IMG/VR virus record: IMGVR_UViG_3300005289_000003
Span: 1-64,000 of that record
Length of the DNA: 64,000 bases
Direction: 5' to 3' (one strand)
From: a virus
Under the pieces are notes generated by a model, which worked only from the letters and a program-made list of their open reading frames with translations, was not told the origin of the DNA and searched no databases. The first letter of the stretch is position 1. Each line of letters begins with the position of its first letter. A program made the position numbers and the translations under genes. Shown here one piece after another: positions 32,687 through 36,401 of this stretch.

Positions 32687-32899
32687 ATGGGGTTTTGGAG
32701 CAACGACGCTCCGAAGCAGAAGTATGGAACCCTAGGAGTGCGTTCGGAATTCAAGTTCAGCCCTAGTGGATATACCTGTATCGTCACTGGGGTATCCAAT
32801 GGTGCATACGGCAAACTAGTCATCACCTATAAGATAAAGGGTGGTGATGGTGGTACCGCCAGTATGGATGTCTACCCAACCGAGAGTTGTTACCTATGA
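32687..32899 (+). CDS. small hypothetical protein (beta-barrel-like family)
   Basis: YGTLGVRSEFKF... Confidence 0.65.
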   Translation: MGFWSNDAPKQKYGTLGVRSEFKFSPSGYTCIVTGVSNGAYGKLVITYKIKGGDGGTASMDVYPTESCYL

Positions 32900-33090
32900 C
32901 TCCTGATGAACTGGCGGAATTTGCCGGTAGGTTTATGTTCCTGCTAGACAAAGACTGGGTTTACCGCGCTCCTGAGACGTTCATCAAGCCTGCCCGTATC
33001 TGGTGGGCTCTAGCGAATAAGAATTGGGAGATGGCAAACCGGTTGCTATCGGAGCTTGAATCCGATAGCGTCTAAACAACTGAATACATG

Positions 33091-33162
33091 GTGTCTGTGG
33101 CAGAGTGGCTATGCACTGGATTGTGGGTCCAGACCACGTGGGTTCAAATCCCACCAGACACA
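33091..33162 (+). tRNA. tRNA-His(GTG)
   Basis: loop TTGTGGG; G at -1; A73 instead of the usual bacterial C73. Confidence 0.88.
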
Positions 33163-33163
33163 C

Positions 33164-33307
33164 GAGGTACCGAAGCGAAGAAGACGGATACTTCAATGGA
33201 TAAACCGTAGGTCGTTGGTTCAAATCCAACCCTCCCAACCATTGGGAGGTAGCTCAGTGGTTAGAGCAACGGTGAAAAGACTGTCTTCGATTATTTCTCG
33301 GTACCTC
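33164..33307 (+). ncRNA. Y RNA 1, YrlA-like (circularly permuted tRNA domain)
   Basis: terminal stem + GAAGCG-N8-GGATACTTC...TATTTCTC; T arm, acceptor, D arm order. Confidence 0.85.
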
Positions 33308-33313
33308 CCAGTT

Positions 33314-33453
33314 TGGCACTGAAGCGGAAGGTAAGGGTTACTCCTAATATGAATAGGGTAGACCAGGTTCGAATCCTGGCCGCTCCACAATAAGGGGCGG
33401 TAGTGTAATGGCAGCACACTAAAAATACCCAAACCTAATATTTCTCAGTGCCA
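33314..33453 (+). ncRNA. Y RNA 2, YrlA-like (circularly permuted tRNA domain)
   Basis: same conserved helix; CCAGG-TTCGAAT-CCTGG, then acceptor, then D arm. Confidence 0.85.
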
Positions 33454-33460
33454 CCCAGTT

Positions 33461-33585
33461 TGACCCGAAGCGTAGTAACTGGTTACTTCTCTCCGCCAGG
33501 GCCTAGCCCGGAGGGCACCTACTTCCAAGCTTTTAAACTTGGTTTCGTAGGAACCTGTGTGCCAATTACGATATTTCTCGGGTCG
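33461..33585 (+). ncRNA. Y RNA-like 3 (non-tRNA insert)
   Basis: GACCCGAAGCG-N8-GGTTACTTC...TATTTCTCGGGTC. Confidence 0.78.
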
Positions 33586-33592
33586 CCTAGAC

Positions 33593-33758
33593 GGCTTCAG
33601 AAGCGAAGAGAGAAGATACTTCTACAGAGAAAGAAAGTCCGTCCGACCAACGGCGCGCTACCTACTCCACACGTCATTGAGTAGGAGCAAGGGTGTAATT
33701 ACCAGATGTTGTGATTTGTTAATACCACCCGTCTTTTCTCAAGTATTACTCTGAAGTC
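33593..33758 (+). ncRNA. Y RNA-like 4 (non-tRNA insert)
   Basis: GGCTTCAGAAGCG-N8-AGATACTTC...TATTACTCTGAAGTC. Confidence 0.75.
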
Positions 33759-33765
33759 TCCTTGT

Positions 33766-33858
33766 TGGGTCAGAAGCGGACGGATAGGTTACTTCACAAA
33801 CACCACTATTAATGGTGTCTCTAAGAGACAAACTTATTCGAATTATTTCTCTGACCCA
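33766..33858 (+). ncRNA. Y RNA-like 5 (short insert)
   Basis: TGGGTCAGAAGCG-N8-GGTTACTTC...TATTTCTCTGACCCA. Confidence 0.78.
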
Positions 33859-33862
33859 CCCT

Positions 33863-33949
33863 AAAGCAAGAGGCACCGAAGCGGAGAATACGGTTACTTC
33901 TTTCGGCTGATAGATCCGTATTCGTTTATTACTCGGTGCTCCTTGCTTT
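33863..33949 (+). ncRNA. Y RNA-like 6 (minimal; just upstream of the Ro60 RBS)
   Basis: GGCACCGAAGCG-N8-GGTTACTTC...TATTACTCGGTGCT; extended stem ending in T run. Confidence 0.75.
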
Positions 33950-33976
33950 TATTACTCTCCCGAAAGGAGAAGCGGC

Positions 33977-35584
33977 ATGGGAAAGCTAGGTAAGCAAAGC
34001 GCAAAGCTTCAGGTGGAAAGTGCGAACAAGAAGGCTGGACTGATTCGCACCAGCGGGGGAAAGACCACCACTCATGAAGGTGGAACCGGGCACCTACGCG
34101 ATACCAAGTCGGAACTATTCCTTCTTGGTGTTACCAACATGGTGTCTGAGCAAACCTTCTATGAGCGCGGTTCGGATCGTGACAAGCGCTTTATGGGTCT
34201 GCTCATCACGGTGACCCATCAGGATGCCGATTGGGTATCTCGGTTCCTACCGTGGCTACGCGGACCAGGCAACATGAGAACCGCTTCTATCGTCGGTGCG
34301 GCTGTCTATGCCCGCACCGTCCTGTCCATGGCTCCTGAGGCACGTGAGGCTCTTTACAGGGCTTTCCCTGGGGCCACGGTCCGGAAGGTTGTGGCGTCCG
34401 TCCTACAGCGTCCCGACGAACCAGCAGAGTTCATCTCCTACTGGCTTCAGGGAAGTGACACCAAGACGCTTCCTGGTGGCGTGCAGCGTGGTCTAGCCGA
34501 CGCGGTAAAGCGTCTGTACACGGAACGGAACTCCCTGAAGTACGACGGACAGAACCAGCCATGGCGTATGTCTGACGTGATTCAGTTGGTTCACCCGGAC
34601 CCTGATACTGAGGTTCAGTCTCTTCTTTTCGATTACCTTGCCAAGAAGCGCTTCAGCGGAAGCGAAGCGGTAATCCCAGACGAACTCTTGATGCTTCAGG
34701 CAAACAGGAAGCTCTACGAAATCCCTCAGGAGCTACGTCGGGAGCGTCTGGCAGCAGACCCGAAGTCAATGGCTACCATTCTCCGGAGTGGTGGCATGAC
34801 CTGGGAATCACTAGCAACGTGGCTAGGTGGTCCTCTGGGTAAGGAAGGTTGGGAGGCAATTGCTCCTAGCCTGGGAATCTTCGCTCTGGTCCGGAACCTT
34901 CGGAACATCAGTGAAGCTGGAGTGAGCAACGAGGTTCAGGAAGCCCTAGCGGCAAAGATTTCTGACCCTCAGGTAATTGCCAACTCTCGTATGTTCCCTC
35001 TTCGCTTCTACACGGCGTATCGGGAAGCCACGAACGTCATATGGAGCTACCCCCTTGAGAAGGCCCTGATGGCTTCTCTGGGGAACATTCCGAAGTTGGA
35101 CGGCCGAACGCTGGTACTGATCGACCAATCAGGTTCGATGAATTTTTCTATGTCGAACAAGTCCACCGTGCGACTCTCGGAACAGGCTGCCTTGTTCGGT
35201 ATCGCTCTGGGCATGGCTGCCGACAATGCGGATGTCTACGTCTACGGGAATTCTCACAAGGAAATCCCGCTACCCAAGGGTGGTTCAATCCTGCCGCTTG
35301 TCGCTAAGTACGGTCAGGCTGATATGGGTGGAACCCAGACATGGACCACTGCCAGATCCCTTTACCGGGGTCATGACAGAATCGTTATCGTGACGGATGA
35401 GCAGAGCCACGATAGCGCGTACGGAATTCCGGATATCCCCATCGTGACCTTCAACGTTGAGGGCTACAAGGCTGCCCACACGGAATCCTCAAAGAAGAGA
35501 ATCACCGTGGGTGGTCTGTCGGATGGTGGGTTCAGCCTGATTCAGGCCATGGACTCCGCCGGTAAGGGTGAGTGGCCTTTCTGA
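33977..35584 (+). CDS. rsr: Ro60/Rsr TROVE-domain RNA-binding protein with vWA domain
   Basis: TTTHEGG.G, FYE, R.D, KY, H P, TWE, ALVRNLRN, SRMFP.RFY; vWA MIDAS DQSGSM, GGT, TDEQ. Confidence 0.93.
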   Translation: MGKLGKQSAKLQVESANKKAGLIRTSGGKTTTHEGGTGHLRDTKSELFLLGVTNMVSEQTFYERGSDRDKRFMGLLITVTHQDADWVSRFLPWLRGPGNMRTASIVGAAVYARTVLSMAPEAREALYRAFPGATVRKVVASVLQRPDEPAEFISYWLQGSDTKTLPGGVQRGLADAVKRLYTERNSLKYDGQNQPWRMSDVIQLVHPDPDTEVQSLLFDYLAKKRFSGSEAVIPDELLMLQANRKLYEIPQELRRERLAADPKSMATILRSGGMTWESLATWLGGPLGKEGWEAIAPSLGIFALVRNLRNISEAGVSNEVQEALAAKISDPQVIANSRMFPLRFYTAYREATNVIWSYPLEKALMASLGNIPKLDGRTLVLIDQSGSMNFSMSNKSTVRLSEQAALFGIALGMAADNADVYVYGNSHKEIPLPKGGSILPLVAKYGQADMGGTQTWTTARSLYRGHDRIVIVTDEQSHDSAYGIPDIPIVTFNVEGYKAAHTESSKKRITVGGLSDGGFSLIQAMDSAGKGEWPF

Positions 35585-35787
35585 TGAAAGTAACCATTGG
35601 GGAACTAATGGATACCATCAACAAGGTTCTAAATGACCCTGACAACCCATTCGACATGGGGCCTGATACGGAAGTGGTGGTGAGTCGCGGTATCTTTCAT
35701 CCGGACTCACCAGAAGGGAAATTCCAGGTACTAATGGTTGCCCCTTATCAGGGTAAACTTCATCTGGTAGTTTCCAAGCTTCACTGA
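35583..35787 (+). CDS. hypothetical protein coupled to Ro60 (ATG at 35584)
   Basis: TGATG overlap; MKVTIGELM... Confidence 0.6.
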
Positions 35788-35792
35788 ATGAT

Positions 35793-35873
35793 GTGGTCTA
35801 GCACCTAGGTAAGACTCTGTACTAAGGCGCCTTAGGTGTTTGCGTCGATAGATCGGGTAGTGCAGAGCACCAC
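35793..35873 (+). ncRNA. compact pseudoknotted RNA
   Basis: interleaved 9- and 10-bp helices inside a closing stem. Confidence 0.55.
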
Positions 35874-35876
35874 TAT

Positions 35877-35950
35877 GGATCGCTAGCTCAATTGGTCAGA
35901 GCAATGCGCTCTTAACGCATAGGTTCAGGGTTCGAGTCCCTGGCGATCCA
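35877..35950 (+). tRNA. tRNA-Lys(CTT)
   Basis: cloverleaf, loop CTCTTAA. Confidence 0.92.
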
Positions 35951-35978
35951 CTTAATAGTCCTGTGGTAGAGTGCAGTT

Positions 35979-36401
35979 ATGCCTATTTGCCATGTCTGCT
36001 CAAAAGAAGTCGATAGATACGCCAACAACAAGCGTTGCCGAGAATGCTATAACGAATATATGCGCGAATATATGAAAAAGCGCTTTCACCAAAAGCGTGC
36101 AGAAATGATAGCCATTCTTGGTGGCGTTTGTGTTCATTGTGGAACTACAGAAAAGCTGGAATTCGACCACATATTTGAGAATACCAAATCATGGGATATA
36201 GGTAAGATTTGGGGACACCGTAAAGTAATAGCTGAATTGAAGAAGATTCAGTTGCTATGCAATAGCTGCCACAAAAAGAAGTCAGCTAGATATATGAGTG
36301 TTGACCATGGTGGCGGTCTATCTGGTAAAGATGGTTGCAAATGTACAAAGTGCAAAGCACGCAAAGCAGAATATATGAAGAAATACAATAAGCCCCGTTA
36401 G
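35979..36401 (+). CDS. HNH endonuclease inserted in tRNA cluster
   Basis: CVHCG...LEFDHI...QLLCNSCHKKK; AT-rich. Confidence 0.88.
   Translation: MPICHVCSKEVDRYANNKRCRECYNEYMREYMKKRFHQKRAEMIAILGGVCVHCGTTEKLEFDHIFENTKSWDIGKIWGHRKVIAELKKIQLLCNSCHKKKSARYMSVDHGGGLSGKDGCKCTKCKARKAEYMKKYNKPR

What the first reader, a model, noticed from the sequence alone, without database searches (positions are those of the whole stretch)
33164..35584. Six-member modular Y-RNA array upstream of a phage Ro60: one docking helix, different inserted domains
Seen: six tandem 87-166 nt units fill the space between tRNA-His and the TROVE/vWA gene. Each has a self-complementary terminal stem whose sequence differs between units but always pairs. 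Each also has conserved boxes 5' GAAGCG-N8-(G/A)G(T/A)TACT(T/C)C (N9 in unit 2) and 3' TATT(T/A)CTC, with the inner helix also covarying. The middles are unrelated: units 1 and 2 are permuted tRNAs, 3 and 4 are multi-hairpin, 5 is short, 6 is minimal. The spacers after units 1 and 2 both contain CCAGTT. Established: bacterial Ro60 (Rsr) genes neighbour Y RNAs (Deinococcus Yrn1 tethers PNPase; Salmonella YrlA/YrlB), usually one or two, built as a Ro-binding module plus an effector module. Inference: this phage encodes a set of interchangeable adaptors that redirect one Ro ring to several effectors or act as decoys, e.g. against tRNA-targeting anti-phage nucleases. I do not know of a six-unit array with such divergent inserts.
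Basis: partly seen in the sequence, partly recalled or inferred. Interest (0 to 1): 0.95.

Follow-up and report, generated by a model that had tools for sequence, protein, structure and literature searches.

The report
Six-gene Y RNA array beside phage Ro60
An uncultured 86-kb actinobacterial phage carries six back-to-back small-RNA genes that share one docking scaffold for its Ro60 ring protein but carry different outer domains; such arrays turn out to be common next to phage Ro60 genes, though I found no paper describing them.

Summary
Six tandem units (33164-33948) fill the gap between tRNA-His and a TROVE/vWA (Ro60) gene. Each unit has a terminal stem, a 5' loop GA|AGCGNA, a covarying inner helix, the box RGWUACUYC and a 3' loop UAUUWC|UC. 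The box pattern occurs six times in the 86,444-bp genome, all here, with 0 expected by chance.

A covariance model built from minimal units of 12 loci finds exactly these six in the window, with my borders. Across 76 units from 21 loci, 92% of cells pair (58% when shuffled) and 15 of 16 pairs show compensatory changes.

The same scaffold lies upstream of, and on the strand of, Ro60 genes in Frankia, Streptomyces and related genomes, and next to them in cultured actinophages and IMG/VR phages. U1 and U2 are YrlA-type tRNA mimics; U3-U6 are not.

So these are Y RNA genes, a known kind. The claim of uniqueness fails. Related phages carry 3-6 units, and IMG/VR contigs carry 8 and 9-10. Cellular loci mostly carry 1 (maximum 3).

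Expression, Ro binding and the proposed adaptor or decoy role remain untested. No held paper describes such arrays. I rate it a new variant of a known kind, of moderate interest.

The parts
33091..33163 (+). tRNA-His(gtg). Its 3' end abuts U1 with no spacer.
   Evidence: ARAGORN; Rfam tRNA 60.2 bits.
33164..33307 (+). Y unit 1, 144 nt. It has a 10-bp terminal stem and a YrlA-type tRNA-like module: T arm, a 7-bp acceptor-like stem closed by the loop ACCAU, and a D arm.
   Evidence: Fold -54.4 kcal/mol, z -4.46. Rfam YrlA 38.3 bits, E 1.2e-6, below the gathering score of 69. CM R1 48.1 bits, E 4.7e-10.
33314..33453 (+). Y unit 2, 140 nt. Its tRNA-like module has the acceptor stem GGGGCGG/CCGCUCC (G3.U70, then A) and the D arm UAGUGUAAUGGCAGCAC. 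The inner helix is interrupted (N9).
   Evidence: Fold z -4.27. Rfam YrlA 21.8 bits; permuted-tmRNA and cyano_tmRNA T-arm/acceptor matches. CM R1 26.6 bits, E 3e-4. The same module occurs in L060.
33461..33585 (+). Y unit 3, 125 nt. The distal module is two hairpins and is not tRNA-like.
   Evidence: Fold z -2.17. CM R1 31.8 bits, E 1.2e-5. No Rfam match.
33593..33758 (+). Y unit 4, 166 nt. The distal module is a multi-hairpin domain of about 108 nt.
   Evidence: Fold -53.9 kcal/mol, z -4.45. CM R1 36.5 bits, E 6.4e-7.
33766..33858 (+). Y unit 5, 93 nt. It has a long inner helix and one small hairpin.
   Evidence: Fold z -4.58. CM R1 53.0 bits; this unit is a seed member of the model.
33864..33948 (+). 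Y unit 6, minimal (core 33872-33940, 69 nt). The scaffold carries a 22-nt apical loop. The outer stem is extended to 14 positions and is followed by UUUUAUU.
   Evidence: Fold z -4.40. CM R1 63.0 bits; this unit is a seed member of the model.
33950..33972 (+). Hairpin TATTACTC-TCC-cgaaa-GGA-GAAGCG. It presents the 3' box and then the 5' box in reverse order and contains the Ro60 Shine-Dalgarno sequence.
   Evidence: Read from the sequence. A lineage-matched box (GAGGCG) also sits at the Shine-Dalgarno sequence of L058. It is absent from L155, L164, L161 and L158 and from BRock and VanLee.
33977..35584 (+). Ro60 ortholog, 535 aa: TROVE ring plus a vWA domain with an intact MIDAS motif (DQSGS).
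   Evidence: Pfam TROVE, E 6.8e-12. PDB 9KOP (phiLo Ro60), E 2.9e-29. Full-length homologs in Frankia at 50-52% and Streptomyces at about 46% identity. MIDAS residues are invariant in alignment A2.

Best explanation
The stretch holds six paralogous Y RNA genes, the non-coding partners of the phage's Ro60 ring protein. Each RNA closes on itself through a terminal stem. Next to that stem lies a conserved asymmetric internal loop (5' AGCGNA, 3' NNUUAUUWC), then a second helix and the box GGWUACUUC. Together these are the inferred docking site for Ro60. The 5' box is the local form of the published Ro-binding motif GNCGAAN0-1G. Beyond this scaffold each unit carries a different module: two tRNA mimics of the YrlA kind (U1, U2), two multi-hairpin domains (U3, U4), one short hairpin (U5) and a bare loop (U6). 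The array lies inside a same-strand cluster of 23 tRNA genes (24 of the window's 25 tRNA genes are on this strand). It starts at the last base of tRNA-His and has 5-8-nt spacers. It is therefore most likely transcribed with the tRNAs and cut out by tRNA-processing and other host RNases. By analogy with Deinococcus Yrn1, Salmonella YrlA and phage phiLo Yrl1/2, the RNAs would gate the Ro60 cavity and tether Ro60 to host factors such as PNPase. Different modules would give different partners or specificities during infection. Shown here: the anatomy, the covariation, the exclusive linkage to Ro60 genes, and homology to cellular YrlA loci. Inferred: expression, processing, Ro binding and the role of the modules.
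For: The box pattern matches six times with 0 expected, and nowhere else in the genome. Stable folds share one architecture. Own partners pair far better than non-own partners. CM R1 finds only these six units in the 64-kb window, with exact borders, including U1-U4, which were not in its seed. On 76 units, 92.0% of cells pair against 58.4% when shuffled (0 of 500 shuffles as high) and 39-54% when the partners are slid. There are 437 double-change cells against 128, and 15 of 16 pairs show compensatory changes. Whole-genome scans of five phage genomes hit only the Ro loci. The 5' module sits on the Ro strand only: it matches the opposite strand in 0 of 160 loci. All 58 cellular hits lie within 1.5 kb upstream of Ro. 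In Pseudofrankia, Rfam YrlA aligns its first helix and its CGA-AUGC to the terminal stem and 5' box of the same scaffold. U1 scores 38.3 bits on YrlA, comparable to the cellular actinobacterial loci tested, which score 38-52 bits. Y units abut tRNA genes within 0-4 nt here and in BRock, GiJojo, Alone3 and Atuin. The Ro60 gene is full length with an intact MIDAS motif. Published precedent: YrlA next to Ro60 in 22 phages (PMC4201824); phiLo Ro60 binds two upstream Yrl RNAs and host PNPase (PMC12135203).
Against: There is no evidence of transcription, discrete ends or Ro binding. No RNA run is on record for this phage. The Rfam YrlA gathering score is not reached. Only 3 of 6 units keep the C of CGAA. 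The modules of U3-U6 have no recognisable relatives in any fetched locus, so selection on them is unshown. Because all units share GGWUACUUC, they may equally share one partner rather than several.
Confidence: 0.82

Rival explanations
1. The units act mainly in cis or as a sponge. As a structured leader they would bind Ro60, of phage or host, to set the level of free Ro60 and the translation of the downstream Ro60 gene. They would not act as adaptors to other proteins.
For: The array lies directly upstream of the Ro60 gene on the same strand. A permuted copy of the two boxes forms a hairpin over the Shine-Dalgarno sequence at 33950-33972. L058 has its own lineage's box (GAGGCG) at its Shine-Dalgarno sequence. 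Host-type Ro60 loci (Frankia, Streptomyces) use the same scaffold, so cross-binding is conceivable.
Against: In Atuin and L117 most units lie downstream of Ro60. BRock and VanLee have a terminator-like hairpin between the array and Ro60. Kela has an RNA ligase gene in between. The Shine-Dalgarno hairpin is absent in L155, L164, L161 and L158. Units abut tRNA genes, as expected for excised RNAs.
Confidence: 0.1
2. The units are decayed or permuted tRNA genes and generic structured spacers of the tRNA cluster. They would serve as processing punctuation with no specific link to Ro60.
For: The array sits inside a cluster of 23 same-strand tRNA genes. U1 and U2 contain T and D arms. GenBank annotators called tRNAs on such units in GiJojo, Alone3 and VanLee.
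Against: The scaffold occurs only next to Ro60 genes, in genomes of 86-224 kb. It also occurs in cellular genomes where few tRNA genes lie in the locus (mean at most 0.44 per locus). Four of the six units have no tRNA-like part. ARAGORN calls none of them.
Confidence: 0.04
3. The repeated boxes are DNA signals, a series of promoters in which GWTACT is the -10 element and TTGGCA or TTGACC in the CCAGTTTG spacers is the -35 element. Under this reading they are not RNA structure.
For: BRock Y1 reads TTGACA-17 nt-GATACT. The spacers before U2 and U3 contain TTGGCA and TTGACC.
Against: The promoter scan finds no + strand site in 32800-36000. Transcripts starting after the -10 element would lack the 5' strands. 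Yet those strands covary with 3' partners 60-160 nt away, which only selection on RNA explains.
Confidence: 0.02

Closest known systems
YrlA/YrlB of Mycobacterium smegmatis and Salmonella Typhimurium (Chen et al. 2014, PMC4201824; Rfam RF02553)
   Same: They are encoded beside the Ro60 ortholog on its strand. They have a terminal stem with a conserved 5'-strand motif (GNCGAAN0-1G; here NGAAGCG). The YrlA module is a tRNA mimic with T arm, acceptor-like stem and D arm in permuted order, as in U1 and U2. M. smegmatis YrlA, which has a 7-bp acceptor stem like U1, is cut by RNase P and receives CCA. The complement of the published M. smegmatis YrlA-5' probe reads TTACCACTTCTAATGG, close to the GGTTACTTC box.
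   Different: Two RNAs per species were reported there; here there are six in tandem, four without any tRNA-like part. The Rfam gathering score is not reached (38.3 and 21.8 bits against 69). The 3' loop UAUUWC is specific to this lineage.
Yrl1/Yrl2 and Ro60 of Thermus phage phiLo (PMC12135203; PDB 9KOP, 9L5Y)
   Same: Phage-encoded Ro60 (E 2.9e-29 to this protein) with Y-like RNAs just upstream. [quoted passage not shown] Binding to phage Ro60 and to host PNPase was shown in vitro.
   Different: There are two RNAs there, not six, and no tRNA-like module is reported. Protein identity is only about 27%.
Deinococcus radiodurans Yrn1/Yrn2 and the Ro60-Y RNA-PNPase (RYPER) machine (as summarised in PMC4201824 and bioRxiv 10.1101/312249)
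   Same: The modular logic is the same: one module docks Ro60 and the other tethers an effector (the KH/S1 domains of PNPase) and gates the cavity. Several small RNAs are encoded upstream of rsr.
   Different: Both strands of the Ro-binding helix resemble those of metazoan Y RNAs. It is a separate lineage of sequences, and no array of many paralogs is known.
Human Y1, Y3, Y4 and Y5 RNAs (from my own knowledge, not checked here)
   Same: Several clustered paralogs share the Ro60-binding stem and differ in the loop that binds other proteins.
   Different: They are Pol III genes of animals with no sequence relation. They have four members, separate promoters and no tRNA mimicry.

Membership tests
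Bacterial/phage Y RNA (Ro60-associated ncRNA) | Encoded next to a Ro60 (TROVE + vWA) gene, on the same strand | tested here: met
   The array at 33164-33948 ends 28 nt before the Ro60 start. The scaffold is found only on the Ro strand in all loci tested.
Bacterial/phage Y RNA (Ro60-associated ncRNA) | Long stem formed by pairing of the RNA's 5' and 3' ends | tested here: met
   Terminal stems are 8-10 bp in all six units. Helix 1 is 94.9% paired, with 7 of 8 pairs showing compensatory changes.
Bacterial/phage Y RNA (Ro60-associated ncRNA) | Conserved 5'-strand motif GNCGAAN0-1G at the Ro-binding site | tested here: inconclusive
   CCGAAG is present in U1, U3 and U6; UGAAG or AGAAG in U2, U4 and U5. 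GAAG(CG) is invariant. Pseudofrankia has GCCGAAG in the same place.
Bacterial/phage Y RNA (Ro60-associated ncRNA) | Second, variable module distal to the Ro-binding stem | tested here: met
   The inserts measure 13-108 nt and are unrelated in sequence.
Bacterial/phage Y RNA (Ro60-associated ncRNA) | Expressed as a discrete small RNA and bound by Ro60 | not testable with these tools
   No RNA holder is on record. Wastewater 'cDNA' contigs are of uncertain library type.
YrlA (Rfam RF02553) | Score at or above the gathering threshold (69 bits) | tested here: not met
   U1 scores 38.3 bits and U2 21.8 bits. The three cellular actinobacterial Ro loci tested also do not reach the threshold: two score 38.4 and 51.8 bits and the third (L218) gave no match.
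YrlA (Rfam RF02553) | tRNA-like domain: T arm, acceptor-like stem and D arm in that order, joined to the Ro stem where the anticodon arm would be | tested here: met
   Met for U1 and U2 (alignments; folds). Not met for U3-U6, which therefore are Y RNAs but not YrlA.
tRNA genes | Contiguous cloverleaf with an anticodon arm | tested here: not met
   ARAGORN calls no tRNA between 33164 and 33976. Rfam tRNA gives only 17 bits on U1.

The most novel reading that the evidence does not exclude
Phage Ro60 loci hold expandable libraries of 3-10 Y RNA adaptors on one docking scaffold, expanded relative to the 1-3 of cellular loci. The non-tRNA modules (U3-U6) would each recruit or trap a different host factor during infection. 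One recurrent tRNA-like class (U2 type; acceptor GGGGCGG/CCGCUCC with G3.U70 and A73, shared with a distant phage) would be nicked by RNase P and charged with alanine, like a two-piece tmRNA tRNA-like domain. That would link Ro60 to translation or to tRNA-directed defence.
Probability: 0.2. Interest if true: 0.8.

Novelty: new variant of a known kind. Interest (0 to 1): 0.55.

Why it matters
Y RNAs are thought to be modular adaptors: one end docks Ro60 and the other chooses the partner. That idea rests on a handful of RNAs. Phage arrays offer natural sets of 3-10 RNAs with one docking scaffold and many different outer modules, several of them in cultured SEA-PHAGES phages with laboratory hosts. 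This makes the adaptor hypothesis directly testable by pull-downs per module and by deletions. It also suggests that phages invest in Ro60-based RNA surveillance or repair alongside their tRNA sets. On the practical side, the scaffold model shows that several annotated 'tRNAs' and small CDSs in GenBank phage records are Y RNA units. It also shows that Rfam YrlA misses the actinobacterial and phage branch.

Tried and rejected
- **Phage database search.** Megablast of the array against 50,697 phage records found no match. blastn found only tRNA-like pieces.
- **Close relatives in IMG/VR.** A search for close Ro60 relatives by single protein found nothing.
- **Pattern scan.** The accepted scan gave mostly chance single hits; only clusters were used.
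- **MAFFT alignments.** Alignments of whole units were out of register at the 3' ends. I solved this by trimming minimal units to equal anchors.
- **The look-up of encoding contigs.** The contigs of the closest Ro60 proteins (71% and 67% identity) could therefore not be fetched, and conservation of the U3-U6 modules stays untested.
- **Expression.** No RNA holder is listed. Laying reads showed near-identical short contigs in wastewater libraries labelled RNA-Seq cDNA, for example 33547-33761 with 1 difference. The tool marks these libraries as probably DNA or a guess, so I do not count them as evidence of transcription.
- **Module relatives.** blastn of the U3-U6 inserts against all fetched loci found no relatives. 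Rfam at E up to 10 found nothing credible on U3-U6.
- **Downstream ORF.** The small ORF after Ro60 is not related to BRock gp190.
- **Promoter and terminator reading.** Rejected.
- **Exact GAAGCG box.** It is lineage-specific, with 2 hits in 160 other loci, so a generalised motif and the covariance model were used instead.
- **Array size and tRNA density.** They do not correlate.
Full report
**What is there.** The window belongs to a complete 86,444-bp IMG/VR virus record with direct terminal repeats. It encodes phage replication and lysis genes: DNA polymerase III alpha, RecA, DnaB, primase, ThyX and an amidase. It also carries 25 tRNA genes. A 535-aa ORF runs from 33977 to 35584. It has a TROVE domain, a DQSGS MIDAS motif and full-length similarity to Ro60 orthologs. 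Its best solved relative is the Ro60 of Thermus phage phiLo (9KOP, E 2.9e-29). Its closest named relatives are Frankia and Parafrankia (50-52%) and Streptomyces (about 46%). These are closer than the cultured actinophages, which reach at most 40.5%.

**The observation.** The pattern GAAGCG-N8/9-RGWTACTYC occurs six times, all between tRNA-His and the Ro60 gene on the + strand, with none expected by chance. It occurs nowhere else in the genome. TATTWCTC follows each 5' box.

Folding gives one architecture for all six units:
- a terminal stem of 8-10 bp that includes the GA of the 5' box paired to the TC of the 3' box;
- an asymmetric internal loop, 5' AGCGNA and 3' 8-9 nt ending in UAUUWC;
- a second helix made from the 'N8' letters;
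- the box GGWUACUUC at the base of a variable module.

The fold z-scores are -4.3 to -4.6, except U3 at -2.2. The unit borders are 33164-33307, 33314-33453, 33461-33585, 33593-33758, 33766-33858 and 33864-33948. The spacers are 5-8 nt, and those after U1 and U2 read CCAGTT and CCCAGTT.

The terminal 5' strands differ between units, sharing on average 3 of 6 positions. Each pairs 6/6 with its own 3' strand against 3.33/6 with the others. The inner helix gives -9.0 kcal/mol with its own partner against -3.7 with the others.

**Relatives.** Ro60 loci of cultured actinophages hold the same kind of unit on the Ro strand:
- BRock 4, VanLee 4, Neville 4;
- GiJojo 5, Alone3 5;
- Quantum 3;
- Kela 3, followed by an RNA ligase gene and then Ro60;
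- Atuin 6, two upstream and four downstream, interleaved with tRNA genes.

The 5' box varies by lineage (GAAGCG, GATGCG, GGTGCG, GGAGCG, GAGGCG, GCTGCC), and so does the 3' loop (UUAUUWC-UC, CUUUUWC-UA, UGGUUAA-CC, YUUGWUC-UC). GGWUACUUC is nearly constant.

In IMG/VR, L058 comes from a complete 224-kb phage. It has nine units, or ten by the covariance model, directly upstream of a TROVE+vWA gene. L304 and L350 have eight by motif, of which the model confirms seven in L304 but only one in L350 (plus one hit outside the motif-defined units); L352 has six by the model. L117 has seven.

Counts with a strict motif:
- 80 IMG/VR Ro60 loci: 0-8 units, with 15 loci at 4 or more. On the opposite strand, 76 loci have zero.
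- 80 metagenome loci: 0-6 units.
- 80 cellular actinobacterial genomes: mostly 1 unit (56 of 80), maximum 3.

The metagenome and IMG/VR sets share some contigs.

A profile of the 5' module alone hits the opposite strand in 0 of 160 loci. In cellular genomes all 58 hits lie within 1.5 kb upstream of Ro60.

**Covariance model.** I built R1 (70 positions, 16 pairs) from 17 minimal units of 12 loci. In the 64-kb window it finds exactly the six units with my borders. This includes U1 (48.1 bits), U4 (36.5), U3 (31.8) and U2 (26.6), none of which was in the seed.

I then counted pairs on the 76 matches with E at most 0.001:
- 92.0% of cells pair, against 58.4% in shuffles (0 of 500 as high) and 39-54% when the partners are slid.
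- 437 cells change on both sides, against 128 in shuffles.
- 15 of 16 pairs show compensatory changes.

The alignment was fitted to the model, which favours the structure. The slid controls and the registered own-versus-other test do not depend on that fit. Whole-genome scans of this phage, BRock, Atuin, Quantum and the 224-kb phage hit only the Ro60 loci.

**Identity.** Rfam YrlA matches U1 (38.3 bits, E 1.2e-6) and U2 (21.8 bits), below the gathering score of 69. Of the three cellular actinobacterial loci tested, two score no better (Pseudofrankia 38.4, Actinomadura 51.8) and the third, a Streptomyces locus, gave no match at all. The model is therefore weak for this branch.

In Pseudofrankia, the first helix of the YrlA model and its conserved CGA-AUGC align to the terminal stem and 5' box (GCCGAAGUG) of the same scaffold. 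GCUUACUUC and UGGUUCUC sit in the expected places. The 5' box therefore corresponds to the published Ro-binding motif GNCGAAN0-1G (PMC4201824).

U1 and U2 have the YrlA module: T arm, acceptor-like stem and D arm. U3-U6 have none. Mixed arrays are the rule: of the 76 units, 50 have no tRNA-like part, 12 are YrlA-type, 11 have only a T arm and 3 are of the U2 type.

**How it probably works.** Y units abut tRNA genes within 0-4 nt here and in BRock, GiJojo, Alone3 and Atuin. No + strand promoter or terminator is predicted inside the array. Co-transcription with the tRNA cluster, followed by excision by tRNA-processing enzymes, is the simplest reading. This is an inference.

U1 has a 7-bp acceptor-like stem closed by ACCAU, the feature that lets RNase P cut M. 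smegmatis YrlA (PMC4201824). By analogy with Deinococcus, Salmonella and phiLo (PMC4201824, PMC12135203, bioRxiv 10.1101/312249), the scaffold docks Ro60 and the outer module binds a partner such as PNPase or gates the ring. Whether the six modules select six partners is unknown. The shared GGWUACUUC box could equally mean one common partner.

YrlA-type modules lack an anticodon arm, so acting as decoys for anticodon nucleases is unlikely. Mimicry directed at the acceptor end remains possible.

**Novelty.** Y RNAs beside phage Ro60 genes are known: 22 phages in PMC4201824 and two Yrls in phiLo. In three full-text searches I found no paper that describes arrays of more than two phage Y RNAs, or the non-tRNA-like units that share the scaffold. 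The window's array is thus a real, well-supported example of an under-described but widespread variant. It is not a singular oddity.

Noticed in passing
window 33950-33972: A hairpin places the 3' box (TATTACTC) and the 5' box (GAAGCG) in reverse order around a TCC/GGA stem that contains the Ro60 Shine-Dalgarno sequence. L058, whose units use GAGGCG, has AAGGAGGCG at its own Ro60 start. L155, L164, L161, L158, BRock and VanLee show nothing similar, so autoregulation is possible but not general.
   Followed up: partly
window 33363-33420; L060:4980-5120 (-); L002:4292-4435: The tRNA-like module of U2 (acceptor GGGGCGG/CCGCUCC with G3.U70 followed by A; D arm UAGUGUAAUGGCAGCAC) recurs almost letter for letter in a distant IMG/VR phage, and in looser form in Atuin. 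Rfam matches it to the tRNA-like domain of permuted and cyanobacterial tmRNA. G3.U70 is the alanine identity pair.
   Followed up: partly
window 33307-33313 and 33453-33460: The terminal stems of U1 and U2 are each followed by C-CCA-GUU, like a tRNA 3' end with an encoded CCA and trailer. The phage's tRNA-His does not encode CCA. This is not seen after units of related phages.
   Followed up: no
L004:2167-2241, L007:2175-2248, L003:2105-2176, L005:1849-2259: GenBank annotations overlap Y units: tRNA-Arg(cct) in GiJojo, tRNA-Ser(gct) in Alone3, tRNA-Arg(tct) in VanLee, and three small hypothetical CDSs (gp88-90) in Neville. These are probably misannotations of Y RNA modules.
   Followed up: partly
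L008:1630-2382: In Streptomyces phage Kela an annotated RNA ligase gene sits between the three-unit array and Ro60. This echoes the rsr-Y RNA-rtcB link of enterobacteria.
   Followed up: no
L001:2308-2395; L003:2340-2400; window 33864-33957: BRock and VanLee have a GC-rich hairpin plus a T run between the last unit and the Ro60 Shine-Dalgarno sequence. In the window the extended outer stem of U6 is itself followed by TTTTATT. The array may end its own transcript, with read-through into Ro60.
   Followed up: no
L001:4474-4637: Rfam manA RNA matches at 49.7 bits (gathering score 55.2) between two tRNA-Lys genes of BRock, just downstream of its Ro60 locus.
   Followed up: no
window 35582-35787: The Ro60 stop overlaps the start of a 67-aa ORF (TGATG). 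The ORF has no Pfam match and is unrelated to the small ORF after BRock Ro60.
   Followed up: partly
window 33091-34100: Wastewater libraries of 2024-2025 hold short contigs identical or nearly identical to parts of the array (for example 33547-33761 and 33891-34035). This phage or a very close relative therefore occurs outside the 2012 soil sample.
   Followed up: partly
L215:2820-2891: Pseudofrankia has a further unit that Rfam scores as a weak tRNA (30.6 bits). It begins GGUACCGAAGUG and uses GUUCCUUC in place of GUUACUUC. My strict motif therefore undercounts cellular units.
   Followed up: no
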